Shown here one piece after another: positions 4,724 to 59,800 of a stretch of DNA of 64,000 nt. The translations under genes were made by a program, and so were the position numbers. The stretch spans positions 1 to 64,000 of IMG/VR virus record IMGVR_UViG_3300045594_000287. One strand, given 5' to 3'. The stretch comes from a virus. Taxonomy: Duplodnaviria; Caudoviricetes. Each line of letters starts with the position of its first letter. Within the stretch, counting starts at the first letter, position 1. The notes below the pieces were generated by a model. The model ran no database searches, was not told where the DNA came from, and was given only the letters and a program-made list of their open reading frames with translations.

Positions 4724-4733
4724 AATGTCCTCC

Positions 4734-9026: not shown

Positions 9027-9039
9027 TATGGTTTCCTCC

Positions 9040-9068
9040 TTTAATGGATAGACCACCTATGCTATAAT
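9040..9068 (+). promoter_or_regulatory. sigmaA-type extended -10 promoter P1 (antisense to the early operon)
   Basis: TG-C-TATAAT at 9060-9068; weak -35 TTTAAT at 17-bp spacing. Confidence 0.65.
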
Positions 9069-36589: not shown

Positions 36590-37240
36590 ATGGGCACAGT
36601 ATCAAAGACATTGGATAAACGTCCTATCCATACTCCATATATAACCACATATGACCGTGTAAAAACCGCTAATGGCTTCAAGGAAAGTAGTGCATATCTG
36701 AAAAGATATTATTCTATGATCGATGCAGAAATCTACTTTGGAGATTTTTATGTGGAAGATGTCATAGACCTTGATTGGGCACTCGTTCAAAATACGCAAC
36801 CTCTGTATGGATATAACTCTTACATCTATGATGAAGTCGCTCAAGGGTCAAGACATGTAAGTGGCAAGTTCAGTATCGCTTTCTCCTCCCCTAATTATCT
36901 GAACAAAATCCTGGAGCAGGCAAAAGAAGATCCTATCACGACAATGAGTTCCTATGTTATCCCGGCACACGAACGAGTAACGGACCACATCGAAGGTGCA
37001 ATAAATAAGAATCTTGAAGGCGAAATAGACAATCCTAAACATAATTGTATATGGCCACAAACATTTGATATCGATATCATCTATGGACAGAAAACTGGCG
37101 TTGGCGATCCGGTACATGTAGTACTTCAAGGGGTCAAACTTGTCGGAGTACAAAGCAGCGTAAGCGGAGAATCAAGCAGGGCTCCGCAGATAGAAGAAAT
37201 ATATACTTTCGTAGCACAAGATATCAAAACGATTGCTTGA
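36590..37240 (+). CDS. Divergent tail tube-like protein
   Basis: P.YGY..., G.R.V.G.F.I.F, FDIDI.YG, L.GV.L, Y.FVA.DI mirror the tube motifs. Confidence 0.6.
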   Translation: MGTVSKTLDKRPIHTPYITTYDRVKTANGFKESSAYLKRYYSMIDAEIYFGDFYVEDVIDLDWALVQNTQPLYGYNSYIYDEVAQGSRHVSGKFSIAFSSPNYLNKILEQAKEDPITTMSSYVIPAHERVTDHIEGAINKNLEGEIDNPKHNCIWPQTFDIDIIYGQKTGVGDPVHVVLQGVKLVGVQSSVSGESSRAPQIEEIYTFVAQDIKTIA

Positions 37241-41500: not shown

Positions 41501-44500
41501 TAACAGCGACTATGAAGACAAAGCTTTGTATGATGGTTATTTCGACAAATGGTCTCACAGCTGGTTGCCTACCCCATCGAATCCACTCTCCCCTATTCGA
41601 GCACTATTAAATCCATATTGGCTAGAAGAAAAACATGCAGACGATAGGCCGTATGCAATATCCGGCCCTTTGTTCCAGCAAGGAACGCCCTGGGGCGCGA
41701 TCCTTAATCCAACACTTGGACAAATTATAAAACCTCAGAAGGAACTGCATCCATGGAGATTGAATAACGGCATCGATGCAAAAAACCTTATTCATGAGGT
41801 TAATGAATATATTCACGCTAAGGCGAGAGACCTCGGCGGGCAGAATATGATCGCCTTGAAAGGCAACACGGCTACCCCTGTCAGATTTACTTCGTATGAT
41901 GCACCTACGGAAGATACGACATCTACATCTGTTCAGACAAAGAACGGGATGTTCTCTGACCCAAGAAGAGGAGTTTATGGAGTATATGATGGCGACGGTG
42001 GTCCAAATCCCGCAACTGGATTCACGAAATTCGGTAAAGGGAGCGCAGCCGCTGCATTCGTAGGAGCTCAATCCGGCTTGCCTGGATTACGAGATATGAT
42101 ACGGGCGAAGCTTTCTGGCGGATCCGGGCAGATGCCGGTACAAAATGGTGACATCATGCAGGACAGTAGAGGCAATCTCGGTGTATATCTACAACAGGAC
42201 AAGCCGGCTCCTATTGACAGCAGCTTGAACCTTGAAGACGAAATCGCAATGGATCGCATGATCCGTGGTGACATGGGTGGTATTAAGCGCACGGTCGGTG
42301 AAATCGTTCATGCTTTGAATCCAACCACGATTATCCAAAGATTGAACGACGGTACAAAGAAGAAAGCCGGTCAATCTGTATCACTTCATACGGCAACCAC
42401 TGATGAATTTGATACGGAGCAAGGCTTTATCAGTCCTGATAAGCTTAAAAATTATCGTCCTTCTCAGGGGATGCAACTCTTGGATAACCCAGATGATATG
42501 GCCGAACTTGTCCATGCCGGTAAAGGCTATGACTACGTCCATGATGCAGCCGTATCATGGCGCTTGATTTCTGGTATCTACGGCTATATGGCCGGAGCAG
42601 CTACTGGATTTGGAGTAGATAATAGGAAAAAGGTTGCAGACTCATCAGACATGACATCGTTCAGCAGAACCTTCTGGGATTCAAATCTCGGAGGCGCCGG
42701 CGGAGATATCATGGAGATTGCACGTCGTTTCATTCCTGACTTCCGTCGTTCAAATCGTGTGAGTCCTTTAATGAATGAGATGCCAGATTGGTTGCCTGAG
42801 CGATTCAAGTATGGTGATCCATATACCCTTCTTCCAAAAGGTGAAATGCGATTACCAGGTAAAGGTTATCTAGCGCTAAATAAGCTACATCCTGATCAGT
42901 TTGGTACATATGGTGCATATGATCGATTCAAAATTTTGGCTGATATCGCACCGATGACCCCAGAATACAAGATGTGGAGAACGATTGCCCAGAAGACTGT
43001 GACGGATCCAGACCTCAAAGAGGATATGGATGATATTCGTCAACGTGTTTCTCAACAGGGTAAGAAACATGATTTCTACGAATATAAATCCGTAGGACAT
43101 GGTTTGGACTACGAGACCGTAACGGTATCCAGCGTTTTGGGATATGGTAAATTTCGTTCGGGATCCAGTATCTATAAAGTCGCCGGAGTAAAAGTTCGCG
43201 GCAATGATAACGAGACTATGGACCAAGTGCTTGGGCGGTATCTCCATGTGGGACAAACCGTAACAGTAGCCGTAGATTCAAACCAGGCATATCGGACAAA
43301 TAGAGATACAGACCATACGATAGACGCTGCTGTGTTTGTCGGTGGAGATAATATCTCTAAACAGATGCTTAAGAACGGTGATGCCACGGTTCGCAAAGGA
43401 GACACGTCTTCTGCTGCTATTCTGGCTAACTATGGGCCGATCCAAAGAACAATCGGCTGGGTATCAGAATTGGTTGCTCACACGGATATTCCATGGCTGA
43501 GCGATCAGTTCTTGCGGGTCCGCTCCCCTCTCGAATCGTACAGAGCAGAACAAGTATATGGCACTCCATATCAATCATGGGATCACCCAATTGACTCTTA
43601 TCTAATGCCGGCATGGAATCGTTCCATTCATGGACGTTCCATTATGGGCACTATTGGTACTTATGCATACCAAGCATTACGCGGTGTACCTATGAGTGCC
43701 TGGGATAAGAAAGCACTATCTGCTGCTTATCTCTTCGGAAATCGCGGTGCCTTCATGGGCGCAGCGGTAACTAAAATGTTCTTTGCCAATGATGCGGAAA
43801 AAGTCATGAAGGGCGCGGATATAGGATCGAATCTGGTATCACTAGGGCATGTATTGACTGGTGGCAATAGCTACTTGGACGAAATGTCAAGCGCAGCTTC
43901 AATCGGAATGTCTGTTGCCAAGTACTTTGAAAAAGACAGTGGTAAGGGTGCCATTGCCGGAGCTCTCGTTGGAGCTGCGTATCGCACAGCAAAAGGACAA
44001 GCCGGCAAAGAATGGATACCAGAAAGAACACAGAAAAAATGGGAAATGCAGGATTACTTTGATCGTCTTACCTATATCAAATACACTGCTCTTTATAAGG
44101 CTGCAGCTAAAAAGGCTAAGTCTGAAGAAGGCGTAGACGTAGACAATCTCGTATCGTCAAGAGATTATAGGGAAGAAAAGCGTCAGAGTGCCCTCGAACG
44201 TTTCAAGGGTATAAAAGATGCTCTGCGCGGAACCAAGAGCAGTTACGAGCACAAGCAGATGATGAAGCTCTTGACAGGAAAAATCAATGCGCTCGACAAT
44301 GACACTACGATCATTGAAGGTGGAAAATATACCCATTCCGCTCTTATATACAAGCAAGCAGCTGAAGCTACGATGTATGCTCTGAAGAAAGGGTCTTCAT
44401 GGTCGCAGATCATCACAGCGTTGCCTACCAACGACAGAGAGTATTTTACAGAGTTCGTAAAAGAACGAGACCCTGGCAAGCGCTCTGATATATTGAAAAC

Positions 44501-44957
44501 AGCCTCCCCTGCTCTGAAAAAGGCCCTCAACCTGGCCTGGGGCAAGGATGTCAAGAAAGATGAAGATAACGAGACTTATTTTGCGAAGCATAACCTGCCG
44601 CAACTCAACTGGGCTGGTTGGCGCCCGGATACGGATCTCAAAAACGTAGAAGTGAAAACTATTGCCAATGAAGGTATGAGCTTATCTGATTTTGGTTATT
44701 ACGAATCGCAGCTTAGGGATCCGGACGTTATAAACGCCCCGTCTATTGTCAAACCAAAGCACAAGAACTCCCAAATGAATGGGGTGCGACGTAACCTGCA
44801 GAAGATCCTTGAAGGTCAAGGGTTAAAGAATGTGAGCGTCAACGTAACTGACAATGCTTTTGACGGACACCAAATAAAAGCAGATATAGGACTATTTACT
44901 GGCAAAAGACAAATTAACGGAATGGTAAAAGACCAGATGGACGAGAAAACAAGATAA
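38517..44957 (+). CDS. Tape-measure-like virion protein (2146 aa) with a degenerate thermonuclease (SNase) domain
   Basis: Follows the chaperones; largely helical, Gly/Ala-rich segments near the C-terminus; SNase-like segment at about 43110-43385. Confidence 0.65.
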   Translation: MTREERLRRQQDMTNRDTSLRSTLTMAGEAAAAFGATAAFIRRTGNMPKIAKGMDMAKDFVSASGNYLPKKAWNDVTFTDTKKMFRDAKSELAKIREDYRLHPVRIDPYSNTSLVGTIHEMNSVLAVPGRTSEAVWRQNTVTAAGRDFMAQNFANLPRTSQEKFNNFISAVSASLDDRRKIAAVRKMAKFDPGEGAISDLLLTHMKQAAASDKAHEATKDITLQNMRSANKQFMKVDNLKKVFGYRKGPNEKSLDFVRKLTKEDDATVGDLLDPKNRDKVAHIPGYRAKKDQQVGESAIEILKNMYKNLKDKDAANHTNEAAEFLKVYVDKGRLKKTDGGELYSFNSPAHIRDKFLDFGAGTLPGQILKLRYFEYNHKAPVFQYIGLGSSDPLLAAAVGNNGKARSSEVGGNYLRIKNNIYHMNENGEANEVKGLEDFRYSSGKFGPGARVLRQIIGDTRYADGGNFITRKLDLFRDREENNGKAPGNGLLSVITKRDDEDWRGNVFKRFLSPTFEQKKAFQQGLIGSDISYSLDYLNKAEHMQNIIASNVFALSREVASQLSKNTTGRAQQLFEALGESDDAKMLDKIMHLSSGSLSTRGDYINADLTNWVEQFNANPQETLNMIRLKDDKEHLNISTSIFDLPSTKGNNQTKDAYEILRTEVAKEAMLQYASQASSDVSKKNYKALIDLVGSLDTDMSKKVEARHMAALAIFQDKTWINERIKGGLTDDGYRSLMNNVEMVMNGSNDEEDKFVRKSFKEVGNAIISPLEQRGEELTLEGPAQYNSWIAMRKMTTPLDFIRSLNDSTKAKAVGKRMFTQFWAGRDNPEDITEATLVPYFMLSRLSDAMNTVGLGFSKESMGSVGQLTKNIMLKRVLPAAVASTYLEWGDDTSQELTGTSVSGAMANGIANIDLASRKVMDTFGLTDWLKGEKSINPIMQYWGGHGEFQSWAERKKYYESGYDPVRKGAWWTFGGVNEARGGEIQYWQPSYARRINSDYEDKALYDGYFDKWSHSWLPTPSNPLSPIRALLNPYWLEEKHADDRPYAISGPLFQQGTPWGAILNPTLGQIIKPQKELHPWRLNNGIDAKNLIHEVNEYIHAKARDLGGQNMIALKGNTATPVRFTSYDAPTEDTTSTSVQTKNGMFSDPRRGVYGVYDGDGGPNPATGFTKFGKGSAAAAFVGAQSGLPGLRDMIRAKLSGGSGQMPVQNGDIMQDSRGNLGVYLQQDKPAPIDSSLNLEDEIAMDRMIRGDMGGIKRTVGEIVHALNPTTIIQRLNDGTKKKAGQSVSLHTATTDEFDTEQGFISPDKLKNYRPSQGMQLLDNPDDMAELVHAGKGYDYVHDAAVSWRLISGIYGYMAGAATGFGVDNRKKVADSSDMTSFSRTFWDSNLGGAGGDIMEIARRFIPDFRRSNRVSPLMNEMPDWLPERFKYGDPYTLLPKGEMRLPGKGYLALNKLHPDQFGTYGAYDRFKILADIAPMTPEYKMWRTIAQKTVTDPDLKEDMDDIRQRVSQQGKKHDFYEYKSVGHGLDYETVTVSSVLGYGKFRSGSSIYKVAGVKVRGNDNETMDQVLGRYLHVGQTVTVAVDSNQAYRTNRDTDHTIDAAVFVGGDNISKQMLKNGDATVRKGDTSSAAILANYGPIQRTIGWVSELVAHTDIPWLSDQFLRVRSPLESYRAEQVYGTPYQSWDHPIDSYLMPAWNRSIHGRSIMGTIGTYAYQALRGVPMSAWDKKALSAAYLFGNRGAFMGAAVTKMFFANDAEKVMKGADIGSNLVSLGHVLTGGNSYLDEMSSAASIGMSVAKYFEKDSGKGAIAGALVGAAYRTAKGQAGKEWIPERTQKKWEMQDYFDRLTYIKYTALYKAAAKKAKSEEGVDVDNLVSSRDYREEKRQSALERFKGIKDALRGTKSSYEHKQMMKLLTGKINALDNDTTIIEGGKYTHSALIYKQAAEATMYALKKGSSWSQIITALPTNDREYFTEFVKERDPGKRSDILKTASPALKKALNLAWGKDVKKDEDNETYFAKHNLPQLNWAGWRPDTDLKNVEVKTIANEGMSLSDFGYYESQLRDPDVINAPSIVKPKHKNSQMNGVRRNLQKILEGQGLKNVSVNVTDNAFDGHQIKADIGLFTGKRQINGMVKDQMDEKTR

Positions 44958-45062: not shown

Positions 45063-48000
45063 GTGCGAACATTGAGACAGAATTTTATAAATGACGATTC
45101 AAAGAAAATCGTTGAAAGCAAAGTAAATGATCATATCGGGAAAATCACCAGAAACTCCGTCGAAGAGCAGATCCTTGAAAAAAGCGATAAGACAGATAAA
45201 AATCTGTATAATAAAAATATTGACCAGTGGAGAGAGATTCATGGCGCCGAAATAGCTAATGGACTTCTGAAGTCAACTGACGCGGTTGCGGGAATAAATG
45301 TCAGAGCGATAAAAAATACGCTGACAAACGCTCACAGTTCTCAGATCATAATGAATCCTTCTGAACTTTACGGGGAAACTCGTAAAAGTCGTTACCTCGA
45401 AGCAGACGTAAAAGAAGTCTACGAAAAAATGGGAATGGATGCCTTCGAGCACGTCCTTGACCTGAATGAAACTGGAAGCAAATACTTTGTAGGAAAAACT
45501 GCAACCAGTATTGCATTCCAGCATACTAACCGTGGTGTAAAACAGAACTATGACAGAATGATGGCCGGAATCAAAAACTCCGAAGAAAAAGGCCTGTTCG
45601 TAGACTGGGATACAGAAACCATGAGCGGAACTAATAAATTTGGAAAACAAATAGTCGACCAAATGACAGAGTTTACGTTCAAAGTTGCAAATTACGATGA
45701 CGGATCTATTGTAAAAGGACGTTCCTACGGCTCGATCATCGGTGCCACGGAAGCACAATACAATGACTACTTGAAAAAAATTGAACGCTATGAAAATGGT
45801 GGATCGCTTTCAAATTTAGATAGAGTTGAACTTAACCGCTTAGCTTTGATGGGTAAAAGCAAGGTCAAGGAAACCGAAAGCGGCATCCATAATTACTCCT
45901 ATTTCGCTGGTGCGGAAGAAGTAGCTGAAAACCGTTCAGAGGATATGCGTGCCGGCCTCGAGCAGTTATTTGGTATAGGTAAAGCTCAGCAAGCAAAAGG
46001 CGCCGTAGAAGAATATGGCGGGCAGAAAATGTTTGCCTGGGAGAAAAAACTATTCCAGGGCTTAGATGAAATCATTCAAAATGATCTCACTGCAGTCGGA
46101 CACAATACACTCACATTCGATAACGGCGTTATGCTTCATCAGTTGCAGCATGGAATGTGGTCTGCAGGCGGCAAGGCATATGCTGACCAAATGCTTAAAG
46201 CTACCAATGGATTGCATTTTGAGCATGAGAATGATACTATCGCGATGATTCGTCAATCCGTTCCAGATCGTCTTCAGATTTATCGCAATGCCGACGGTAC
46301 GTTAAACCAAGCAGCAATGCAGTACAACAAAGAACATGGTCTTACACTATTCCAGCAGGAAGCGATTCAGAATGCAATGAATAGTGACTTCTATGCTTCT
46401 ATTGGTGCTGCTCATACGTCAGATGTCGACGTACAGGCAAATGCTATGATGTACGCTTCAAATAAATTGAAGCTCAATACGGAAGAATCGTTCTTCAAAG
46501 GAATGCCGGAGTCTGCTCCATCGATCCAGCTGACTGGAGGAAGTAAGCAGCTACTGTATGCAATGGAAGGCGGCGGCATAGAATATAAGGGACTGCTGGG
46601 TTTTGTAACAGATCCATTGACTGGAGATATTCGCACATCTGATAAGTATCGGATGAGTAAAGTACCTACGGGCGGAGAAATGGCTTCAGAAGTAAACAAA
46701 GACTTCTTTGCCACTGGCAACATTCACAAAGGTGTATCATACACCATAAGCAATGCAACAAAAGTGGAGACGTCAGACGAGTTCCGCGACCTTATCGGGA
46801 AATATAGGCCGGGGATGGATGTCCGCAGTCTGGTAGCCGTACAACTTATGCCGGTATCCAATTCAAAAACAATGCGGGCAAAAACACCTTACACTTTGAT
46901 TGGATCCATGACCGATGTGCAAGACTATATCAATCATACTTTTTTGCATACTGGACATGCCGTTGAAGACTCCCAGGGACATAGAACCTGGACTGCCAAT
47001 GGCATTCCGGAAGAATCGAGACGACTTCTTCAGGTAAGAGAATTTGCCAACGACGGTGTCCATGCCGGATTTAAGGATTATTCTCTCGAAGACCAGCTTG
47101 CTGAAAGCTCCTATCGTCTTACGAATGAATCTGCTGCCAGAGTAGTCCGTGCGCATGAACTGAAAAAAGACGTTGGCGTATTACGATACGTTCAGGATAT
47201 GGATAAGTATGCCCGGGAAAACGCTATCGATCCGACTGATGAATATCAGATGGAAAATATGCGGCAAAAATTCCGCGACAGCGTATTCAGCCGTTCAAAA
47301 AGCATCGAATCCAAAATTCGCAGTGGAAAAGGGTACGAAGCAGAAGAAATGGTTGGAACGTTCCACGACTATTTCGGGTATATAGATCGTGATACGAAAA
47401 ATCCAATGGTATGGTCAGATACGGTCATGTCAGCTCTGGATCGCGAGGGATATGTTCGTAAAAACCAGCAAGTGATTTCCGGCGCTATTAAACATGCCTA
47501 TGCAAGAGCAGGCGAGTCTGTTACTGATCAAGACATTTCTCATATGACTGCCCTTCAGAAAAAGAACAAAGAAGCTTCCGCCTACTATAGAATGTACATG
47601 GAGTCTGCTACAGATGCAGCTATCCGTAAATTTGGATCAGGCCGGCCCGTAGGGGAGCATCGGATGGGTATCCATACATACGAACTCAACCAGTTTGAGT
47701 TTGACATGAATGGTTACAAAGGGAATTTCAATCCAGACAATGATATATTTAGTGTCCATCTCGGTGAAAATGGCAATACGATGGTCAATCGTTTGCTGCG
47801 TCATCAAGGCTTGCGCACAGACATATCTGATGAAGCAAAGATTGCCGAGCTGCGTAGATTTCAAAAATTTATTGGTGGATCCGAAACTCTCAGTGAGCTG
47901 AATTCAACCAGAAGAGAACTTCTGGAAAAAAACAACTTAATCAACATTGGTGAAGATACAATAGACTCTGCTGCAACGAAGATTATAACCCCGCTGCAGA

Positions 48001-51000
48001 ACTCTCGTCAGTACCAGCCGGCAGGCGGTCGTATTACTCCTACGCTGAAATACGAGCTTGCCGCTTCCATGGAGAACATGGGACTTGATAACCCTGAGGA
48101 GGTGTTGTCAAAAGCAGATAAAACGATCCCCAAGATTTCTATATATAGTTCTAAAACTGGCGCAGACAGCTATGCACACGATATCGTTAACAGCGTATTG
48201 TTCAACGATCTTGATGGGAAAACACTCGATGAAGTAAGAGACGACCTCCAGGAGTATGGATATACTCGTGAGCAGGCAGAAAAAATCATCGCTATGAGAG
48301 AGCAGCGCAAGGCTGATGCGCAGCCGTTCATGAAACGACTGATCGAAAGTGTTCAAAAAAATGGAGGCTCAATCGGATATAACGCAGAAGATCGTGAGGT
48401 GTTCGTAAGCCATAAAGGGAAGACAACAAAATTAAATAATCTTCCCATGGATGAATACTCCAATGGAATGTTCTATACCAGGGTGAATAATTCAAAAGTC
48501 CATGCATCGTCAGGATTCTACGCTACTGGAAAGTATAAAGATGGAAAAGGAACTTTGAAGTTCGGTTCATCGTTATTGAAAGCTGGAGACAGCGTAGGCT
48601 GGATGGATACAGCTATCGCCAGAGGTGCTGAAAACGGAGACCTTGGAGATGAGGTAAACAGCGTCCTTAGTGGGTATGCGAAGGTTATTCGTGAAAATTC
48701 TTCTATCATGGAAGAAGATCTTCAGGACATGCGTGGGCAGTTTGACATTAACTATCGCGAAGTAGCCCCGTTTATCGAAGATAACTGGGATCAGATATCC
48801 CAAAATATGGTATTTGATGATTCGCCTCAGGGGCAGATAAACCAGATTCTAAGAGATGCTGCGATGGACGGTAAACTTAGTGGTGACCGGCTTAACTTTG
48901 AGTTGAATTCTGCCATCATCCAGAATGCAGACAACATCTTGCCAGTAATGGCACAAAAATATGGTGGAAGCTATGCACAGACCATTATGTCTGGTTTTTC
49001 TCTCAATATGAAACATGCTGGAGAACTTAAGGCCAGCGCAACAGAAATAACGAATTTTGGCGACGACTTAGATAGTGGTAAGCGTGACGTAGCAAGCTTC
49101 ACAGGACGTGCTTACAAATTCCGCGCGGATGGAAAAGTTGATGGTGTTCGTATAGGACAATCTGTAACATCTGAGATAGCAGGTAATTATGCAGAAGACG
49201 CCGGCGAAGGAATCTCATACGGTGTAGATACAACACTTCGTACTGGCCGTGTACGAATGACAACCAGCGGGCTGCGTAATCTCGTAAATAGTGCAGACAT
49301 CGACAATGACTATGTACGAGACGTGTTGACTGGAATACATTTGGACGAAGGATCTGCTGCTGCCGATCCTAGACTTATAGATCAGTATTTCACTAGACGT
49401 AAGTCTATGCAGAGAATCGCAATGCATCGAATCTTTGACATGGACAAAGATACAATCGATAACCTTAGCACGAAGCAGCATACTGCTCCAATTCTAAACA
49501 TTGACCCTAAAACGGGTAATATCAGTTTCACGTATTCGAACGGCCTATTCGTAGAAAGCACAGACTTGTCGGGAGAAAGCCCGATTAGCGTCAAAGGATT
49601 CCAGGGTGCAAAAGAAGAAGTTGCAATCAAAGAAGCTGGTTTGTTCAACGTTGGCTTCTTCTCGAAGAAGGGTAATCTTTTTGCTGACCAGCAGAGCGTA
49701 ACAGATCTTTTAAATAGCAAGAAATACCATGGCCGCATCGTGAATGCAGAAGATTCGCGTCTAGAGGCTCTTAACGTCCTGAATGAAGTATACAACGCTT
49801 CGTTCTACAATCTGTCACTGGATGCCAACGGAAATACAAAACTCGGAGAACAAGCAGAAAAAGGCATGTATAATGCCCTATTTGCTACGCCTGGAGCAAT
49901 AGATAAACGTGTAGGAAGCACATTAGACCGACTAGGCCTTAGCAGCATGAAGGATCTTGTGCCGAGGTTGGATTTCATCGAATCCCTAAACGCGAAAGAT
50001 ATATCAAAAACTCCATTGGGAGCAATGATCAGTGCAAAAGCTGGACGTAACGTATCTCATGATGAGATTCTAAAAGTAATCGGCAGTGAATTTAACAGTG
50101 CGAAAAGCATGTACGATGCAATGATGGAAGAGCGCTATAAGCCATGGGATACGCTCGAAAGTATTGCTCGTAATGCTAATGTTATAAAAAATGGAGAAAC
50201 GGTCCATGCTTTCAGCAACACGATTGCTGCAGAGAATAAGCATTTAAACGCACGATCCGTCTTGAGAGTTACAGATAACCTCCTCGAAAAATATAATGGG
50301 GATGCCCAAAAAGTCGCATCATTGCTGCAAGAAGCAATGCCAGGGATTCACGTTGGTGGCAGCGGGCGGCTGTATCACAGTGGAGATATTGATATTGATG
50401 CTGTGATGGAAATAGCGAATAAGGAACTTGACGGCAACGTAAGAACCTTCTACACAAATGGAAACAAAACCATTTCAGCAGAACAATTCAGCATGCTTCC
50501 TGAAGGCGAAAAAGGAAAATGGAAAAAGAACGAATCCAGTTATGCATACACTGAATTAATGCAGCTCCCAGACCAGGACCGTGAGCGCTTAAGTGACGAG
50601 AATGGAGTTGGCAAGACCCTAAAGATGGATCATCGTACCAAGGCAATGCTTGATACCCAGGTCTACAGCAAAGAAGGTCTTAAGAATGTTCGTAATGGCT
50701 TTGTTGATTCAATGGGCAAAGAAGCTGGCGAAGCTCAGTATCGTAAGTATTTTATGGATGCCCAAAACGGAAAACTTGTGGCTGAAGGACTTAGCGACAA
50801 GATAAACGATTCAAGGTATTATGATCCAGGAGATAAACGCGTTGCTATCGATGGAGGACAAGATTTAACTAAAAAAGACAAAGAAGAAATAAGCAAGGCA
50901 AAGGAAGAGCTTAGAAAATCTGGAATAAACAAAAAGATTGCTGACCAGATAATCGAAGAAGCTCGAACCGCCGGAGTTAAAGACGTTGGCGTAGGGGCTA

Positions 51001-53714
51001 TTAAGAAGCAATACTCTTACAATATGTATAGCGTTGCAGATGACTTCAACAGAAAAGGCGGACTAACTAAAGATGACATGATCAAAAAATGGGGGTACAA
51101 AGAACCTATTTCCTTGACCAGCTTAATCACCGGCGCAAGCGATACTGTCGGACTCGAAAAATCTATGTATGGATCGAATACGCTTATAGATTTACATATA
51201 CCTGAACTGGGTGACCATCAGATATATGATGATGAAGCCCATCGTTATATGGCATTGCCTTGGGCTGATCCTAAAACAATGGGATCTTCAGATGAACTTG
51301 CTAGAACAGCATATCAGAAAAAAATTGCGGGCATGCAAAATGTTGTAAATCGAATGCGTCGAACAGCAGATGAAAACAATGGCCAAATCACAGATAAGGA
51401 AAAAATTGAAATCCAAGCAGATCTAAAAAATCGAGTAACCCAAACACATGAAGCGATTGCCGCTCAACTTGTACAGAAGAAAGGCTTAATGGCTCAAGCT
51501 TCAGAAGCTCACTTCGGAGATGCTGGTTTCAACAAAGCTTATGGTATACAGCTCGAAGGCAACGAAAAAGGATTCTGGGGAAACATAAACTTTGATGGGC
51601 TAAATATCTCAAAAGAAGCTGGGAAGGGAGAAGCCGGATTAGAGATTGATTACCAAGTGGCTGGAATGAAAGCGAGGAATCGTTTCTATAACGATAAATA
51701 CTTCAAGTCATTAGGCCTGGATGAAGAAACGACAAAAGCTATCCAGGAAAATACATTTGATCGCTTGAACAACGGCGGAACATTATCATTGAATATCCGT
51801 AACCCACAGGGTTACGATAAATCGACCAGCGCCGCAGCAATGTATTTTGACAAATCAATAAAAGGTAACACACTTGCTACATCTGCAGTGATGTGGGAAT
51901 CCAAAAAAGGCGATTATGACTCAGATGAAGCTGACTTCAAAATCCTTAAAGGCCGTGCCACTATCGTTGGGAATAATGGCAAGCAAACGGTAACTGATAT
52001 TGACTATGCTACTTATCAGACGCTGCAGCAGGCCAAAGAAAAAGGCATAATCAAAGATATATCGATGTCCGAAGAAGGACTTAAACTCTTCGCAGACACT
52101 AAGAAATCAATCATGTATAACGCCGCAGACCGGAATAAAGCTTCAAGGTCTGAACTCGGGAATACTGAATTGGGGCAGGGAGAGTACAACTACAGTAAGT
52201 TATACAATGAGTCTCTTGAAGGCAATGGCAACGTTGATAAGGTTGGCCACCATCATTTAACAACGGGGCTTAGAGAGCTTGCTCCTGAACGAAAAATGCA
52301 GCTGGCAAATATCTATAAAGATACTGAGCAAGCAGTCATTAATAAGGTTGGCCAGGAAGCATACGACAAACTGGATAACGCATCTAAGCGATCTGAATAC
52401 TTCAATTATGTCTCTGAAAATATGACTGGAGAAGCTTCAAACGAAGCGCGTAAAGCTGCAAGCTTTAATTTCAGAGTAGAGCGAAGCGCTCAGGATGCCG
52501 AAGCACGAGCGCGTAAAGTTGCTGCCGGCGAAATGAATGACGCAGTGTTCAAGTATTTCCGGGTAGCTGAGCAGGCTAAATTCTCTGACGGGTCAAAAGT
52601 CTATAGCGGTGAAGATCTGAAGGCAATGGCTCAGGTTCATACTGCATTGAACGAGGCGTTCTTATCTCCTAAGAACGAAAAAGGTGTTGGCAACATCTCA
52701 ATTGCTTCACAGTTGAGAGATGCTTTCCAGGACGTGTATCATGCAGCCAGGAGCAATAGCTTAAATACAGAAGCCAGAGAGAAAGCAAGAAACAAACTCA
52801 TTGACATCATTGACCCGATCATTCAAGGCAGGCGCGGGAAAGAAGTTGCAAAGATCCCGGGGATGGAACTTGATGCTGAGGGCAAGGCTACTGAGGCTGG
52901 AGCAAGGCATGCAGCAGAAATATTCGCATCCGTAGCCGACAGAGTAAGTTTAGCCGGGGTAAATATGAACACCTTGAATATGGGTGTTACTAGCGGGGCT
53001 ACCTCAGACGGAATCATGCACGCCGCATACCAACGTGCCAGTGACAATATGATCATGGATATGGCTGAACATCAGGCAAACATCCAGAGAAAGATAAATG
53101 GTAATGGATACAGCTCAATAGAGGAATCTACTGGCATTCACGCCTTCAGAGGATACGAAAAAGAAAATGCCGAACTCATGAGAGAAAATGCAGCTGAGGC
53201 AGCACGCAAATTAAAAGACTATGAAAATGGGAAGGCTCCAAACTTATCCGATGCCGTACCTGTCAGTAGAGGATTGGGGAAAGAAATCGGAGAAGCCTTA
53301 TCACACATGAAGATTACTGGTAAAGGCTTTGCAAAAGGCATGCTGGGAATTGCAGGTTCTCTTCTTGTTTCTGGGTATGCCAACAATCCGAGTGCCCCAG
53401 CAAGCAGCCAGCCTGCTCCGGCTGAGACTCAAGCTCAAGGAGCAACCGACTCAGCCAATGGGATGTCTGAAACTCAAGTGCCAAATCTATCTGACGGAAA
53501 TGTGAATGTATTGAGGGGCGGTCCGAAGTCAGGATACGTAATCAATATCAATGCCACATCGCCAAGAGGACAATCAGCAGCACAAAACGCCATTAGCCAA
53601 GCGATTGGAGGAGCTGTTCCAATGAACTCTTCTATAAATGTTGCCACCAATACATCGTACAAAGATAAAATAGACCAATTCCAAATTGGCAAAATCATAG
53701 AAGGAATGTTTTAA
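45063..53714 (+). CDS. Giant putative virion RNA polymerase (fused beta/beta'-like DPBB domains) with N-terminal DEDDh 3'-5' exonuclease
   Basis: Exonuclease: DTE (183-185), GHN..TFD (346-353), H451-x4-D456. RNAP: HLDEG (about 1428), K1593-x6-KG, QKKG (about 2139), R2246-NP, GDYDSD (2283-2288). The start may be TTG 45072 (GAGGTG RBS). Confidence 0.75.
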   Translation: MRTLRQNFINDDSKKIVESKVNDHIGKITRNSVEEQILEKSDKTDKNLYNKNIDQWREIHGAEIANGLLKSTDAVAGINVRAIKNTLTNAHSSQIIMNPSELYGETRKSRYLEADVKEVYEKMGMDAFEHVLDLNETGSKYFVGKTATSIAFQHTNRGVKQNYDRMMAGIKNSEEKGLFVDWDTETMSGTNKFGKQIVDQMTEFTFKVANYDDGSIVKGRSYGSIIGATEAQYNDYLKKIERYENGGSLSNLDRVELNRLALMGKSKVKETESGIHNYSYFAGAEEVAENRSEDMRAGLEQLFGIGKAQQAKGAVEEYGGQKMFAWEKKLFQGLDEIIQNDLTAVGHNTLTFDNGVMLHQLQHGMWSAGGKAYADQMLKATNGLHFEHENDTIAMIRQSVPDRLQIYRNADGTLNQAAMQYNKEHGLTLFQQEAIQNAMNSDFYASIGAAHTSDVDVQANAMMYASNKLKLNTEESFFKGMPESAPSIQLTGGSKQLLYAMEGGGIEYKGLLGFVTDPLTGDIRTSDKYRMSKVPTGGEMASEVNKDFFATGNIHKGVSYTISNATKVETSDEFRDLIGKYRPGMDVRSLVAVQLMPVSNSKTMRAKTPYTLIGSMTDVQDYINHTFLHTGHAVEDSQGHRTWTANGIPEESRRLLQVREFANDGVHAGFKDYSLEDQLAESSYRLTNESAARVVRAHELKKDVGVLRYVQDMDKYARENAIDPTDEYQMENMRQKFRDSVFSRSKSIESKIRSGKGYEAEEMVGTFHDYFGYIDRDTKNPMVWSDTVMSALDREGYVRKNQQVISGAIKHAYARAGESVTDQDISHMTALQKKNKEASAYYRMYMESATDAAIRKFGSGRPVGEHRMGIHTYELNQFEFDMNGYKGNFNPDNDIFSVHLGENGNTMVNRLLRHQGLRTDISDEAKIAELRRFQKFIGGSETLSELNSTRRELLEKNNLINIGEDTIDSAATKIITPLQNSRQYQPAGGRITPTLKYELAASMENMGLDNPEEVLSKADKTIPKISIYSSKTGADSYAHDIVNSVLFNDLDGKTLDEVRDDLQEYGYTREQAEKIIAMREQRKADAQPFMKRLIESVQKNGGSIGYNAEDREVFVSHKGKTTKLNNLPMDEYSNGMFYTRVNNSKVHASSGFYATGKYKDGKGTLKFGSSLLKAGDSVGWMDTAIARGAENGDLGDEVNSVLSGYAKVIRENSSIMEEDLQDMRGQFDINYREVAPFIEDNWDQISQNMVFDDSPQGQINQILRDAAMDGKLSGDRLNFELNSAIIQNADNILPVMAQKYGGSYAQTIMSGFSLNMKHAGELKASATEITNFGDDLDSGKRDVASFTGRAYKFRADGKVDGVRIGQSVTSEIAGNYAEDAGEGISYGVDTTLRTGRVRMTTSGLRNLVNSADIDNDYVRDVLTGIHLDEGSAAADPRLIDQYFTRRKSMQRIAMHRIFDMDKDTIDNLSTKQHTAPILNIDPKTGNISFTYSNGLFVESTDLSGESPISVKGFQGAKEEVAIKEAGLFNVGFFSKKGNLFADQQSVTDLLNSKKYHGRIVNAEDSRLEALNVLNEVYNASFYNLSLDANGNTKLGEQAEKGMYNALFATPGAIDKRVGSTLDRLGLSSMKDLVPRLDFIESLNAKDISKTPLGAMISAKAGRNVSHDEILKVIGSEFNSAKSMYDAMMEERYKPWDTLESIARNANVIKNGETVHAFSNTIAAENKHLNARSVLRVTDNLLEKYNGDAQKVASLLQEAMPGIHVGGSGRLYHSGDIDIDAVMEIANKELDGNVRTFYTNGNKTISAEQFSMLPEGEKGKWKKNESSYAYTELMQLPDQDRERLSDENGVGKTLKMDHRTKAMLDTQVYSKEGLKNVRNGFVDSMGKEAGEAQYRKYFMDAQNGKLVAEGLSDKINDSRYYDPGDKRVAIDGGQDLTKKDKEEISKAKEELRKSGINKKIADQIIEEARTAGVKDVGVGAIKKQYSYNMYSVADDFNRKGGLTKDDMIKKWGYKEPISLTSLITGASDTVGLEKSMYGSNTLIDLHIPELGDHQIYDDEAHRYMALPWADPKTMGSSDELARTAYQKKIAGMQNVVNRMRRTADENNGQITDKEKIEIQADLKNRVTQTHEAIAAQLVQKKGLMAQASEAHFGDAGFNKAYGIQLEGNEKGFWGNINFDGLNISKEAGKGEAGLEIDYQVAGMKARNRFYNDKYFKSLGLDEETTKAIQENTFDRLNNGGTLSLNIRNPQGYDKSTSAAAMYFDKSIKGNTLATSAVMWESKKGDYDSDEADFKILKGRATIVGNNGKQTVTDIDYATYQTLQQAKEKGIIKDISMSEEGLKLFADTKKSIMYNAADRNKASRSELGNTELGQGEYNYSKLYNESLEGNGNVDKVGHHHLTTGLRELAPERKMQLANIYKDTEQAVINKVGQEAYDKLDNASKRSEYFNYVSENMTGEASNEARKAASFNFRVERSAQDAEARARKVAAGEMNDAVFKYFRVAEQAKFSDGSKVYSGEDLKAMAQVHTALNEAFLSPKNEKGVGNISIASQLRDAFQDVYHAARSNSLNTEAREKARNKLIDIIDPIIQGRRGKEVAKIPGMELDAEGKATEAGARHAAEIFASVADRVSLAGVNMNTLNMGVTSGATSDGIMHAAYQRASDNMIMDMAEHQANIQRKINGNGYSSIEESTGIHAFRGYEKENAELMRENAAEAARKLKDYENGKAPNLSDAVPVSRGLGKEIGEALSHMKITGKGFAKGMLGIAGSLLVSGYANNPSAPASSQPAPAETQAQGATDSANGMSETQVPNLSDGNVNVLRGGPKSGYVININATSPRGQSAAQNAISQAIGGAVPMNSSINVATNTSYKDKIDQFQIGKIIEGMF

Positions 53715-53718
53715 CTTA

Positions 53719-53744
53719 GCCGCCTACGGGCGGCTTTTTATTTT
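53719..53744 (+). terminator. Intrinsic terminator with UNCG tetraloop
   Basis: AGCCGCC-TACG-GGCGGCT plus T run. Confidence 0.85.
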
Positions 53745-53750
53745 CCTCAA

Positions 53751-53810
53751 TTTAGTCAACTGTCGACTAAATCATGAAAAAGTAAATTTAGTCGGTAGTC
53801 GACTAAATTT
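53751..53810. promoter_or_regulatory. Two tandem copies of the TTTAGTC-N7-GACTAAA palindrome
   Basis: 53751-53771 and 53787-53807; match 33761-33781. Confidence 0.75.
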
Positions 53811-53862
53811 AATAGCCTTCTACAAAGAGTAATAATACAGGTAGTAAAAGGAGGATATATTC

Positions 53863-56800
53863 ATGGCTAACGAAAATACGACTGAAACAGTAAACAAAGA
53901 CGTTGCGGCTGCTGCCGATCATGTCAACAACATGGATTACCGTGTCTCTGATAAGAATTTCAAGACCCCTGAAATGGGAGATTTTTATATTGGTGCTGTA
54001 GATAGCACATATCTTAAAAGACTGGATGAAATAGTAAATGGAAAGGGAGAAGGTGAAGGAGACGATAAGAATGCCGCCTTCTACACTGAAGCCCCTCCGG
54101 TAAAAGAGCTTGGAGAAACACCTACGTCTCTGTTCGTGAAAGCTCATGTTAACATTTCCCAGGATGATATCGATAACGGATTGTGCAACGGAAACACTTT
54201 GAATGTAAGTCTTGATGGCATTGTCGGCGATTCCGAAGGAAAAGCAGTAAGCAATATTCAAGCATCTATGTTTAACAATACATTCAATACACCAATGGTT
54301 GGAACGGAAAGTAAAAATATTTCTGTTCGTCTGGTAGGAATGAAATGCCCAGCTAATCCGAAATGGGCTCAAGAAAAAGGAGTTAAAAAGGACTCTATAA
54401 AAATGAAGACAGTAGCTATAGGGGATGCCGCAAAATCCTCTGACTATGTTTTTGCTAACGGCATCCACGATAAGTCCGAAACGATTACGGTTGCTTATAT
54501 CGGAAATAAATGGAGAGAGATAACCATTTACAACCAAGACGACAATGTAATGGATTTTCGTTGGTGTGTTGATAGCGGCGACTCTGATGGAGGAAGCAAG
54601 GATTCCGGAGGCGTTACTGCAGCGAATAACTTAAAGAAACTGATTGATAGTGCTAATGGAGAAGTGTATTTTCTATTAGATAAGAATTCTTGTCCAACTC
54701 AGTTTGCATCAACATCGAGTGATATTTTATCTGATAGCAGCGCGATCCAACAACTGGCATCATGGAATAAGACTAACGACAATTCGAGCAACGGCTTAAA
54801 CCAAGTTACTCAAGATGCAGCAGCCAGATTCATAGGAGCTGCCTATGTAAAACGTGATGGAAAATGGATAAATCTTACGAAAGCAGCCCTTACGGACGAT
54901 TCTAACCAAACGCTGTCTGCTGATACCTCATACGATGGTAAATGTAGAGACGTTTTTAAGCCCGCACGCTATGATAAAGATTCGGTCAACTACGCCGATG
55001 CGTTTATGAAACTTACCGATGAAATTGACGATCGTAAGAAAATCCAACATGATATTTTCAACTCAACTCCAGAAGATCTTCGCAAATGGACAGTCACTAT
55101 AGGCGACGTAACATTATTCGTCCCCCCGACAAGCATTACGTGCACCTCTGAAATTGAAAACGAGCGGTTACCAATGCTGAGATCTAAAGGCAGCATGGCA
55201 AAAACAGGCCGAAGAAGTGTGCGTCATATCCAGATGCACATATACTTTAACGAGGAGCGGGGGATTAACGGGTTCAAATATGAAGCAAAGACTCCGAATG
55301 GATCTGCTATAAAATACTCTATCAATGGACTACGATCTTTAGTCGCTCAGTTTAAGTTCGTTCCGTATGTACCGATTGATAATGAATACATCAATGAAAC
55401 GCTTGGAATAAGTGCTGTAACTGTAAATAATCTCAGCGTAAAAAACGTAAATGGTTACCCCCGTTTATTGGATGCTACGCTGACAGTTACTGAATTCGAC
55501 TATACCGTATACATGCCAGAAGCTACGCTTACAGGTATAGACAATGGCGGATTCGTTAATTTTTTTGCAGCTGCTATAAATTGGCCAACTATGCGCTATT
55601 ACTACCAGCGGGCACTTTCGTATGGAGATTCATTCAAAGAGAATGGATTAACTTACAATTCTTCCGACTATAACAAGGCAATCATTAAGAATCGTACATC
55701 GCTGATCCCAATGTCGTTTACCGACCCAAATGTCAAATTTTATGTTGCGAGTGCAGATTACCTCGATAAAATGTTACAAGCCAAGCTTAATGCAAAACGC
55801 GGCAAGGGCGATAATAATATTAGCTTTACGCCTGATGAAAAGAATGCAGCAAAAGATCTTGGAACAATATACGATGCAATAGACGCTTGTAAGAACGACG
55901 GAGAATTTCAGAATGCACTTGCTAAATTGAATTCCAGAGATTTAGCCTGGAGTCCGAAGTACTCTGAAAACGGCAACTACATAAACCTTACGGGTGATAC
56001 AGCGTTCTCAGGAAAGGAACAATATAGCCAGGGCATGGTTAGCGGTACAAATCTCTGTATGGTCGCAAGTGGATACACTGGGGATCGTGAAGGAGTAGAA
56101 AAAGACCTGAATGGCGCCCTGTCTCTTTTAAAAGCCCATATGGATGAGGTCAATGAGAAGGCGGGAAAGACTATTCTCTCTGATCCAAAATTCTATATAA
56201 AATGTAGCGGAGGCAATGACGAACGTAAATTCTCTGCTGGTGTATCTTACGCAGTAAACCTTGAGTATCTTTCTACGGATGCGAATTACAATGACATAAG
56301 AAAAGACGTGTCGAATTATATCGATGCGAACTCAGAAGACTTCTTCAATGATCGTCGCATAAACGTTCCATTGTCGCTTCCATTGAGCAACCCAAGTGAA
56401 AATTACAAAACAACAGTGATGCCTAAAAATGGAGAGCTCTCGATCGACATGGACAATAAAGATGTTGCTTTTCTGAAGTATTGCCAAACTCTTGGCAAAG
56501 AAGCTCCGGATCCGAATGACACGAAACGTATCAGCTTTGTCAACCTTAATCAGCTCGATAATCTTTATTATGAAGAGTATACGATGCCTGAAACACGGGT
56601 ATCGAACTGGAGCGTGGCGTTGACTAACCACATCTCAAATCTCAATGTATGCGAGATATCCGGCTCTTCTCCTCAGTATCTTGGTGGTGAAGATTTGGCC
56701 ATTACCATGGAGGTTACCACCACAAGCGATGAAGTCGTAAAGAAATTATCCTGCCTGCCACAGATCTGTGCAGCATATGGCCGTAAATATCATAGCATTC

Positions 56801-59800
56801 TCCCTGCGAGTGTGATCAAAGTTCAGTCAGAATTTGCCCAATTCTTTGGTGTGAATGAAGTGCTAGTCCAAAATGTACAAGTAGACACTACTCCAAATCT
56901 CCCTTCTGTAAAAACGATAACAATAGAGCTTATATCCAACGATAGAAGCTTACGCAATCGAGAAGCTTTGAATAAAATTGAAGCGGATAACGCAGGAAAG
57001 ATTGGAGGAAACGAGCAAGCTGACCGCTCGATAAAGAGTTACTTCGACATCGAAAAGACGATTGCGCAAGCAGAACTGTATCCAGATCTTGAACTTCCTA
57101 CGATAGATGAAATGCAATCTGCTGGCTGGGATTATGTAAGATATAAGTTCCAAGATGACAGAAAATATGTTGATCCAGATTTCTACTTCCTATACTTGAA
57201 TACATTGAGTTCTCAGATCATCAGAGAATCAATTATCACGTCAAAAGATTCGGGGGCAGGGGCAACAACAACGTGGAAGGATTCAACTGGCGCAAATATC
57301 AAAACGGAAATGTCTGCTCGTAAAGGCTTCAATGTAATCGCAAGAGATGCTAAAGCGCAAAAGCAGAAAGATAAAGTTATTGCTATACAGAACTCAACGA
57401 ATAAGCTGAACTCAAAAGATCTAACTGAAAATCTTAGGGATTCTAATCTGTCAAATGCAGAAGCAGCTGACGGCACGGAAACATGGGATATCTGTGAAGA
57501 CATAAAAGCGGTGTTCCTTGAAAAGGGGTATAAGCAAGAGTATGATTCCTATCAAGCTCGCGTTCATGCTCAGCAAGTAAGCGGTACAACTGGAAATGCT
57601 GGTGCTATTGACATCAGCGGGACTGACAAGACAGCAACGCAAACTGCTGCCACTTCATCAACCACGGCAGCTACGAATACCACAGATACATCTTCGAAAG
57701 CAGCAGATACCACGAGCGATTCCTCAGATACCGAAAAAACAGATGATGCAACAAAATCCGACAGTTCATCTGGAGATATCCAAACAGAGGGGAAATGGGT
57801 AGCTACCCAGCTTGCAGATGCACAGAAAGCGTCAAAAGCTATTGAAGAGTATCTAAACGGAACTGGCATAACAGAAACCGTAACCGACAATAATGTAGTA
57901 AAAGAAGCTGCTTCTAAGCAGTCTGCTTCAAACGTCTTGTCCACAAGTGTTGGAAAAAGCGACACTCCGACGACTGCAGGAACGAGCGAGGCATCGACGT
58001 CAGATAAAACAACCACAACATCAACAGAAAAAACATGCCAGGACAATTCGATGGAAAGCAAGATATCCGAAGCAGTAAATAAATTCTTTCAGGATGCATC
58101 CGTCCAAGCAATTCTTGGGTTCTTAAATGTTGAATACACGAATGAAACATTCCTGGCTACAGTTAGAGATATCGTTTATGCTGCTGCTTGTGCAGCCACT
58201 GGCGAAAAAGAATACTCAAATAAAGACCAAGCTACCGGATGGAGGCCGTCACCTGACTTCATTGGTGTCGTAACAGGTAATGGTCAGGATGATAGCAACA
58301 CCACACTAGCAAAAACAGTTGATGAAGCAATGGATAGGGCCATAGAATTTGGTTGCTTTAAAATAAAGCAATACGACAGTTCTACATTTCTTAAGATGAC
58401 CGGGGAAAGCCCAAAAGACGTGTGGGGAGGCAGCGAGGATACCAATGCAACTCACTTTTTAATTGATCCATACTACAGAAGCAAATCGATTGAGGAAATT
58501 AAGCAGTACAAAAAAGGATGTATCAACAATGCAAGATTCTGCACAATGGCGTACCTTCGCATCATGCTGTATTGGTTGAAAAAGTTGATTGACATCCAAG
58601 CTTTCCCAGCAATGACTGCTGACGTATTAAGGTCGGCAGCCAAAAACGAAATGTCCATTATTCAAAAGAACAAAGAAAAAAATGTAGATGGCGACATGGA
58701 TAAATCTATGGAACAGCATTTGAACTTTTTCAGCAAACGGTCGTATGCAGTAGATGCCGGAAAGTTTTGGACAGCATGTACCCTAGCATCAGGTGATGGG
58801 AATACAACTATTTTTGATCGAATTAAAAAGCGTGATTATCGCGGTTTGAATGGTTACATCTCTGGGTGTTCTAAGCCGGCAAGCTTTATCGATCCTTCCG
58901 ATAATGGAAGTTTAGCTGTACGTAAAATGACCCTCGCTTTGGTTGGCAAAAAACGAATTAAAGATTCGGATGCTATAGGTGTTCCACAAAATACGCCTGC
59001 CACTACCTACATGAGAGACCTGTCAGAAAAAAAATATATTGAAGCAGCAGAAGATCCAGCAACTTACTGCATGCATGCTTGTCACGATATGATAGTAAAC
59101 GATGCAAGAGGGCGCATGCTTAGAGCTTTTCCTACGTACTACATGATGTTCATAGATGAAGGCAGAGAAATCGGCATGTGGAAGCTCCATGACAACTTCT
59201 ATAACAATATGTGCATTTCCAGTATCCAGGTCGTGAAATCCAGAAAACTTCCGGCGGATACGGCTATTGTATGTATGAGTAACTTCTACCAGTCATTCAC
59301 AACTGAAAATGAAGATTATCAAAAAGTAGAAGAAGAAACCTGGGGCAATACATTCAAATCTATTATGAGTCCATTCTTCTCGGATGATTATGGTAAGGAG
59401 CAAGAAGCCAAACGCAAATCGGCACCGCCTGAAGATAAGATACGACTCCGCCCGGGTGCACGCATTCATATCCGTATGGGGTACGGATCAAACGCAGCCA
59501 TGCTGCCGGTTGTCTTTAACGGTAACATTGCGGAAGTAACCGCTACAGACACCGTTGAGTTCCAGGCCCAGGGTGATGGCGTGGAGTTGATGAATCCAAT
59601 CGTAGATGATACGGAAGGACATCAAATTATAAATCAAGATAGCCTGGTGAAAGGTTGGTTTACCAACGGAGGAACTCCGAAAGATATCATGAACGCCATC
59701 CTGACTTCTTGTGGCGGAATCATAAAAGCCGCTATGAAAGATCTCGGACGTCAAGATCTTCTCGGTAGAAACCCATACGGAATTTATCATTTTGGTAATC

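What the first reader, a model, noticed from the sequence alone, without database searches (positions are those of the whole stretch)
49330..51950. Single-chain beta+beta' RNA polymerase motifs with a variant DYDSD active site
Seen, in canonical order: GIHLDEGSAAADPRL (cf. beta GYNFEDSILVSER), GNTKLGEQAEKG (cf. GDKMAGRHGNKG), QLVQKKGLMAQ (cf. beta' KGKQGRFRQ), and LNIRNP..(34 aa)..GDYDSD (cf. NRAP..NADFDGD, similar spacing). The DxDxD triad is retained with Gly replaced by Ser. The gene lies between the TMP and hub with its own terminator. Known: crAss-like phi14:2 packages a large single-chain DPBB RNAP. Inference: a virion-delivered early RNAP.
Basis: partly seen in the sequence, partly recalled or inferred. 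Interest (0 to 1): 0.9.

Follow-up and report, generated by a model that had tools for sequence, protein, structure and literature searches.

The report
Giant tail-module exonuclease–RNA polymerase fusion protein
A 2,883-residue protein encoded among the tail genes of an uncultured jumbo phage with a contractile tail contains a single-chain version of the cellular RNA polymerase core fused to a 3'-5' exonuclease, so the phage probably carries its own transcription enzyme into the host, in a protein family I found described in no paper or curated library.

Summary
All four motifs are present at the stated coordinates in one ORF (45063-53714, +). They hit residues that are almost invariant in a family of 88 metagenomic clusters of 2,500-3,800-aa proteins: E1429, K1593, K1600, K2139, R2246, P2248 and D2284/D2286/D2288. 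The Asp triad is kept in 86 of 86 proteins.

The Ser in DYDSD is ordinary: position 4 is S in 45, G in 36, A in 3 and T in 2 family members. The beta-like barrel folded alone gave no significant match. An N-terminal DEDDh exonuclease is intact and conserved.

Virion delivery is inferred from gene position and conserved synteny only. The "TMP" and "hub" labels are unverified. A second, small DFDGD polymerase candidate lies at 6963-9056 (-).

This scan has noted similar exonuclease-polymerase giants in several other genomes. Verdict: real, a new variant of a known kind.

The parts
45063..53714 (+). Gene for the 2,883-aa giant protein (P0001). The start is probably TTG at 45072, which gives the 2,880-aa database form P0002.
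45570..46442 (+). N-terminal DEDDh 3'-5' exonuclease domain, about residues 170-460. Exo I is D183/E185 (45609-45617), Exo II is N348..F352 D353 (46104-46121), Exo III is H451..D456 (46413-46430).
   Evidence: These residues are invariant in 8 close homologs and at least 90% conserved in 48 full-length members. The family profile hits solved DEDDh exonucleases 9mrc/9mrd at E=4.7e-7.
49332..49895 (+). Candidate beta-like (second) barrel region, residues 1424-1611. It contains E1429 (49347-49349) and the invariant Lys pair K1593/K1600 (49839-49862).
   Evidence: K1593 is kept in 83/86, K1600 in 86/86 and E1429 in 70/77. The two Lys sit on a beta hairpin in the model. The fold of this part alone is inconclusive.
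51477..51479 (+).
   Evidence: 79/84 in the family
51519..52139 (+). Beta'-like catalytic double-psi beta-barrel, residues about 2153-2359 (model 754-960).
   Evidence: In the model this region is strands with short helices. Unrelated double-psi barrel proteins (CDC48 N domain) align to model 754-960, and RNA polymerase largest subunits align over about 600-1200.
51798..51824 (+). R2246-x-P2248-x-x-Y2251-x-x-S2254 motif. It has the same R/P/aromatic register as NRAPTLH of E. coli beta'.
   Evidence: R 83/87, P 87/87, S 80/86; comparison with sequences printed
51912..51926 (+). DYDSD, the predicted Mg-binding triad D2284/D2286/D2288.
   Evidence: 86/86 for each Asp
52428..52586 (+). 53-residue helix (residues 2456-2508) with conserved G2489. 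It lies about 170 aa after the triad and is a candidate bridge helix (inference).
   Evidence: Model secondary structure; G2489 conservation. In gp66 the bridge helix lies 164 aa after the triad (paper 10.1101/2020.03.07.982082).
53340..53711 (+). Most conserved block of the family, the C-terminal ~120 residues. A Gly/Ala-rich hydrophobic stretch is followed by a GYVININA-type segment. Function unknown; possibly an assembly or ejection signal.
   Evidence: Y2825, I2827, N2828, A2843 at least 90% conserved
53718..53745 (+). Intrinsic terminator: a 7-bp GC-rich stem followed by a T run.
38517..44957 (+). Upstream giant gene (2,146 aa, no Cys, no family match). First member of the conserved three-giant block.
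   Evidence: synteny
53863..62130 (+). Downstream giant gene (2,755 aa). It matches PHROG 20474, labelled 'endolysin', and has a hydrophobic stretch at residues 2285-2387. Third member of the block.

Best explanation
The gene encodes a multidomain giant protein whose central third (about residues 1400-2600) is a single-chain two-barrel (cellular-type) nucleic-acid polymerase, most likely a DNA-dependent RNA polymerase. D2284/D2286/D2288 would hold the catalytic Mg ions on the beta'-like barrel. K1593/K1600 would come from the beta-like barrel. An intact DEDDh 3'-5' exonuclease is fused at the N-terminus. The gene sits in the late tail operon as the middle of a conserved block of three giant genes, so the protein is probably built into the virion, passes into the cell with the DNA, and transcribes the first phage genes. 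A second, small polymerase candidate with a DFDGD motif (6963-9056, -) would then take over, as in Thermus phage P23-45. Shown here: motif conservation, the polymerase fold, the exonuclease homology and the synteny. Inferred: RNA synthesis, packaging, ejection, timing, and the role of the exonuclease.
Against: No sequence-level link to any RNAP family was found in Pfam, PHROGs, PDB phmmer or phage tblastn. hhalign to beta', gp66, gp96 and gp64 gives at most 3.3% probability. The beta-like barrel folded alone matches nothing significantly; Foldseek gives only weak beta/Rpb2 rows at E 0.07-1. Foldseek TM-scores for the large model are low (0.13). No proteomic, transcript or promoter evidence exists. 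The contig is only about 45% of the genome and lacks most early genes. A fused exonuclease is not a feature of any two-barrel RNA polymerase in the papers and structures I consulted.
Confidence: 0.6

Rival explanations
1. It is a two-barrel polymerase but not an injected early transcriptase. It could be a non-packaged middle/late RNA polymerase, a primase-like or RNA-dependent enzyme like QDE-1, or a PolD-like DNA polymerase whose fused DEDDh exonuclease proofreads.
For: The best structural match is QDE-1, which uses both RNA and DNA templates (PMC9508822). A 3'-5' exonuclease fused to a polymerase is the classic proofreading DNA polymerase layout. PolD shares the two-barrel core (PMC6355029). 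The exonuclease is conserved together with the polymerase residues. Packaging is untested.
Against: PolD was not among the rows listed in either structural search, which is not an exclusion. The gene lies inside the tail operon with conserved synteny, not with the replication genes on the other strand. A separate small DFDGD polymerase candidate already exists for a non-virion role.
Confidence: 0.2
2. It is mainly a structural tail or ejection protein (tape measure, tail-lumen or conduit protein). In this reading the polymerase-like core is an inactive relic or scaffold.
For: It sits in the slot where contractile-tailed phages have the tape measure. The C-terminal block is the most conserved part. 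There is no Cys in 2,883 residues. P23-45 gp96 shows that one protein can be both (PMC10770324).
Against: Every predicted catalytic residue of both enzymes is kept across a family with about 16% mean identity. That argues for selection on activity. A relic would lose the triad in some lineages.
Confidence: 0.07
3. The motifs are chance resemblances in an unrelated protein.
For: Short motifs such as DxDxD are common. Three other DxDxD strings occur in the same protein.
Against: Only the 2284 copy is conserved. Independent structural searches return two-barrel polymerases exclusively at the top.
Confidence: 0.02

Closest known systems
Thermus phage P23-45 gp96, a tape-measure-fused virion two-barrel RNA polymerase (PDB 8H2M/8H2N; PMC10770324)
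   Different: There is no significant sequence or profile similarity. gp96 has the polymerase at the N-terminus of a 5,002-aa tape measure in a long non-contractile tail. Here the polymerase is central, an exonuclease is N-terminal, the phage has a sheath, and a tape-measure role is unproven.
Neurospora QDE-1 and plant RDR2 (eukaryotic RNA-silencing two-barrel polymerases; PDB 2J7N, 7Y7P)
   Different: These are eukaryotic cellular enzymes with no exonuclease fusion. Identity is 10-12%, and they are unrelated in biology.
Cellulophaga phage phi14:2 gp66, the crAss-like virion RNA polymerase (PDB 6VR4; 10.1101/2020.03.07.982082)
   Same: It is a giant (2,180 aa) single-chain two-barrel polymerase and the middle of three consecutive giant virion-protein genes. 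It has a non-Gly fourth motif residue (DFDID) and an R-to-D spacing of 39.
   Different: hhalign finds no relation, and gp66 is not among the listed structural matches. gp66 belongs to the order Crassvirales and has no exonuclease domain described. The segment between the two barrels is about 400 aa longer here.
P23-45 gp64 / P74-26 gp62 non-virion polymerases (PDB 8F72, 8F5M)
   Different: They are about 600-aa stand-alone enzymes. gp64 is undetectable in P23-45 virions (10.1101/2022.12.01.518664).
DEDDh exonucleases (DnaQ/RNase T/TREX type; PDB 9mrc, 1y97)
   Same: The Exo I, II and III motifs are present with His as the general base. The profile match is E=4.7e-7.
   Different: Here the domain has a long insertion between Exo I and Exo II and is fused to a polymerase of the RNA polymerase superfamily. 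Pfam models do not reach it.
Coliphage N4 vRNAP (about 3,500 aa; PMC13434306)
   Same: It is a giant polymerase packaged and ejected with two other ejection proteins to start transcription, which is the function proposed here.
   Different: Its catalytic fold is unrelated: T7-like palm, not two-barrel (PMC7824862).

Membership tests
Two-barrel (double-psi beta-barrel) RNA polymerase superfamily | A barrel carrying the DxDxD Mg-binding loop, preceded by the R-x-P strand | tested here: met
   The triad is kept in 86/86, R2246 in 83/87 and P2248 in 87/87, and the spacing is 38. In the model the loop lies between a short helix and a strand. Model 754-960 aligns to double-psi barrels and to RNAP largest subunits.
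Two-barrel (double-psi beta-barrel) RNA polymerase superfamily | A second barrel supplying two conserved basic residues to the active site | tested here: inconclusive
Two-barrel (double-psi beta-barrel) RNA polymerase superfamily | The whole catalytic core superposes on solved members | tested here: met
Two-barrel (double-psi beta-barrel) RNA polymerase superfamily | Bridge helix and trigger loop after the catalytic barrel | tested here: inconclusive
   Long helices at model 938-970 and 1057-1109, plus disordered 967-1005, fit the pattern. No residue-level superposition was available.
Two-barrel (double-psi beta-barrel) RNA polymerase superfamily | Match to curated RNAP sequence models (Pfam Rpb1/Rpb2 domains, RdRP) | tested here: not met
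   This is usual for divergent phage families, and even the DFDGD protein P0010 fails it.
Two-barrel (double-psi beta-barrel) RNA polymerase superfamily | Template-dependent, Mg-dependent RNA synthesis | not testable with these tools
   Needs biochemistry.
Virion-packaged, ejected phage RNA polymerases (gp66, gp96, N4 vRNAP as a functional class) | Protein present in purified virions and delivered to the cell | not testable with these tools
   There is no cultured relative: tblastn of three family members finds nothing in 50,697 phage records.
Virion-packaged, ejected phage RNA polymerases (gp66, gp96, N4 vRNAP as a functional class) | Gene lies in the late structural module | tested here: met
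   It is on the same strand downstream of terminase, portal, capsid and sheath. The block of three giants is conserved in L002, L003, L005, L007, L013 and L014.
Virion-packaged, ejected phage RNA polymerases (gp66, gp96, N4 vRNAP as a functional class) | Dedicated early promoters and rifampicin-resistant early transcription | not tested
   The contig is about 45% complete and holds little of the early region.
Crassvirales gp66 orthologs | Sequence or profile homology to gp66 | tested here: not met
   hhalign probability 0.4%. This protein is not a member; the resemblance is in architecture and proposed role.
DEDDh 3'-5' exonucleases | Exo I (DxE), Exo II (D) and Exo III (HxxxxD) catalytic residues | tested here: met
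   D183, E185, D353, H451 and D456 are invariant or at least 90% conserved.
DEDDh 3'-5' exonucleases | Significant similarity to a solved member | tested here: met
   The family profile against 9mrc/9mrd gives E=4.7e-7, with Exo II and Exo III aligned. TREX2 gives E=0.78.
Tail tape measure proteins | Tape-measure family match or demonstrated length-determining role | tested here: inconclusive
   No tape-measure family matched any of the three giants. Only the gene position fits.

The most novel reading that the evidence does not exclude
The exonuclease and the polymerase work as one injected machine. In one version, the DEDDh domain resects a 3' strand at the entering end of the linear genome to expose single-stranded template on which the two-barrel polymerase starts without a classical promoter. 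gp66 transcribes only single-stranded or denatured DNA in vitro. In the other version, the enzyme is a proofreading, PolD-like two-barrel DNA polymerase or primase delivered with the genome. Either would be the first exonuclease-coupled member of the RNA polymerase superfamily in a virus.
Probability: 0.15. Interest if true: 0.85.

Novelty: new variant of a known kind. Interest (0 to 1): 0.62.

Why it matters
In the papers read here, virion-delivered two-barrel RNA polymerases have been shown experimentally in crAss-like phages, in the P23-45 group and, as multisubunit enzymes, in phiKZ-like jumbo phages. This family would add a widespread, uncultured clade of roughly 220-260 kb phages with contractile tails. 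It has 88 clusters at 50% identity. It would also add a new architecture: a polymerase of the cellular RNA polymerase superfamily fused to a conserved DEDDh exonuclease. It gives another deep branch for the debate on the origin of eukaryotic RNA-silencing polymerases from phage enzymes, since QDE-1 is the best structural match. It suggests that host-independent early transcription is more common among jumbo phages than gene annotation shows; the only source name found for any member is "hypothetical protein".

Tried and rejected
- Sequence searches with the whole protein found nothing: Pfam, PHROGs, phmmer against PDB, and tblastn against 50,697 phage records.
- tblastn with two distant family members also found nothing.
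- The search for related loci in IMG/VR found no relative other than the window's own record.
- ESM Atlas feature search gave no usable hit.
- Pfam scan of 26 diverse family members at E<=1 gave no RNAP family.
- Pfam Rpb1_2 and Rpb2_6 against the whole contig gave nothing.
- hhalign and hmmsearch of family profiles against E. coli beta/beta', gp66, gp96, gp64 and phiKZ subunits were not significant. The aligned stretches do cover the catalytic loops.
- Family profile against PDB sequences: phiKZ gp55 reached only E=0.49.
- The beta-like barrel folded alone gave no supported match in three searches.
- gp66 (6VR4) and PolD did not appear among the listed structural rows. This is not an exclusion.
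- Neither neighbouring giant had a significant PDB sequence match.
- Promoter search was not attempted because the contig lacks most early genes.
There is therefore no habitat or expression data.

Full report
**The sequence.** The window is the first 64 kb of a 106,938-bp IMG/VR viral record that CheckV rates 45% complete, which implies a genome of about 240 kb. On the + strand it carries large terminase, portal, major capsid and a tail sheath gene. Three giant ORFs of 2,146, 2,883 and 2,755 aa follow. The finding lies in the middle ORF, 45063-53714. The database copy has 2,880 aa, consistent with a TTG start at 45072. A strong terminator follows the gene.

**The protein belongs to a real, large and unannotated family.**
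- Whole-protein searches of Pfam, PHROGs, PDB sequences and 50,697 phage genomes found nothing.
- A word-indexed search gave seven metagenomic homologs at 29-37% identity.
- A profile of residues 1380-2420 searched against 1.84 billion representatives gave 88 clusters, 57 of them at E<1e-30. Nearly all are 2,500-3,800 aa.
- Members occur on contigs of up to 253-260 kb. The only name any source gives is "hypothetical protein".
- The order of the three giant genes is kept in close relatives and in distant ones.

**The motifs hit the family's few conserved residues.** In 48 full-length members only 46 columns are at least 90% identical. They fall into three groups:
- A DEDDh exonuclease set: D183, E185, N348, F352, D353, H451, D456.
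- A short C-terminal block.

The Asp triad is present in 86 of 86 proteins. The fourth motif position is S in 45, G in 36, A in 3 and T in 2, so canonical DFDGD and DYDGD forms occur in the same family. The Ser is therefore a clade habit, not an oddity. crAss-like gp66 has Ile there and is active (10.1101/2020.03.07.982082). The R-x-P-x-x-aromatic strand has the register of NRAPTLH in E. coli beta'. The Arg-to-Asp distance is 38 residues, against 38 in P23-45 gp96, 39 in gp66 and 35 in beta'.

**Sequence comparison alone cannot prove the relationship.** hhalign and hmmsearch against beta', gp66, gp96, gp64 and phiKZ subunits give at most 3.3% probability, although the aligned pieces always cover the catalytic loops. 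The literature says the same of two-barrel polymerase families in general (10.1101/2022.12.01.518664).

**Structure settles the fold.** AlphaFold2 on residues 1400-2599 with a 35-row alignment gave mean pLDDT 83.1 and pTM 0.81. Three searches agree:
- Foldseek against PDB returned 84 hits at E<=1e-3. The listed rows are all bacterial RNA polymerase chains, best E 2e-5 and probability 1.0, though TM is only 0.13 because the proteins share only the core.
- An exhaustive search that does not lean on Foldseek (48,161 chains) gave the same picture. The top 17 rows are all two-barrel polymerases and include phiKZ and AR9 non-virion polymerases and P23-45 gp96. Unrelated double-psi barrels (CDC48 N domain) align to model 754-960, which contains the triad.

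Against predicted viral structures, the best matches are unnamed giant phage proteins, including ones from Acinetobacter phage ME3 and Microcystis phage MaMV-DC. Proteins of uncultured 'cr' phages (one annotated putative RNA polymerase) and giant-virus and jumbo-phage polymerase subunits follow.

**The N-terminus is a DEDDh exonuclease.** The family profile hits solved enzymes 9mrc/9mrd at E=4.7e-7, with Exo II and III aligned. All catalytic residues are conserved together with the polymerase residues. None of the papers or solved structures consulted here shows such a fusion in a two-barrel RNA polymerase.

**How it most likely works.** The fold, the conserved active-site residues and the tail-operon position point to an enzyme that is assembled into the virion and enters the cell to transcribe early genes. 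This is the role shown for gp66 and gp96. A 697-aa ORF on the other strand (6963-9056) carries conserved SKGKxGxxAGK, VKYPKMH and D[FY]DGD motifs. It is a candidate non-virion polymerase, which would mirror the P23-45 pair. Packaging, ejection, timing and template are all inference. I put about 0.9 on the two-barrel polymerase fold and about 0.6 on the full injected-transcriptase model. The main rival, at 0.2, is a polymerase with another role, including a proofreading PolD-like DNA polymerase. The labels "TMP" and "hub" for the neighbours have no support.

**Novelty.** No paper found here describes this family or the fusion. The concept of an injected two-barrel polymerase is known. I class this as a new variant of a known kind. 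Other windows of this scan hold AI notes on similar exonuclease-polymerase giants in at least seven other genomes. I did not test those notes and do not count them as evidence.

Noticed in passing
window 6963-9056 (-) and 4982-6913 (-): A 697-aa ORF (P0010) has VKYPKMH, a GMDFDGD motif near its C-terminus and SKGKxGxxAGK. All three are conserved in its two homologs P0099 and P0100. It has no Pfam, PHROG or PDB sequence match. It is a candidate small non-virion two-barrel RNA polymerase. The triad lies 50 residues from the end, so the following 643-aa ORF may supply the rest of the enzyme.
   Followed up: partly
window 38517-44957 and 45063-53714: The first two giant proteins contain no cysteine in 2,146 and 2,883 residues. 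The third has 1.3% Cys. This may be linked to passage through the tail in an unfolded state.
   Followed up: no
window 53863-62130: The third giant matches PHROG 20474, labelled 'endolysin', at E=1.8e-177 over residues 1986-2442. It has Gly/Ala-rich hydrophobic stretches at residues 2285-2387. In a distant relative the equivalent protein has a weak Endonuclea_NS_2 hit.
   Followed up: partly
window 33049-33687, 33801-34709, 36590-37240: Three ORFs downstream of the sheath gene all match PHROG 9206, labelled 'major head protein'. Given their position next to the sheath, these paralogs look more like tail tube-type proteins.
   Followed up: no
L005 884-2269 (-), and the P0004 contig: In two relatives a Rep3-type plasmid replication initiator gene sits on the opposite strand between the first and second giant genes.
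   Followed up: no
window 53745-53811: Two palindromic sites of the type AATTTAGTCxxxxxGACTAAAT lie between the terminator of the polymerase gene and the start of the next giant gene.
   Followed up: no
BFVD entries A0A172Q021_2 and A0A075BUT7_2: Uncharacterized giant proteins of the cultured phages Acinetobacter vB_AbaM_ME3 and Microcystis MaMV-DC are among the best structural matches to the polymerase core (E 1.8e-7 and 2.3e-4). They could serve as experimental stand-ins.
   Followed up: no
window 3032-4870 (-): A PIF1-like superfamily 1 helicase (Pfam PF05970, E=2e-25) lies next to the small polymerase candidate.
   Followed up: no
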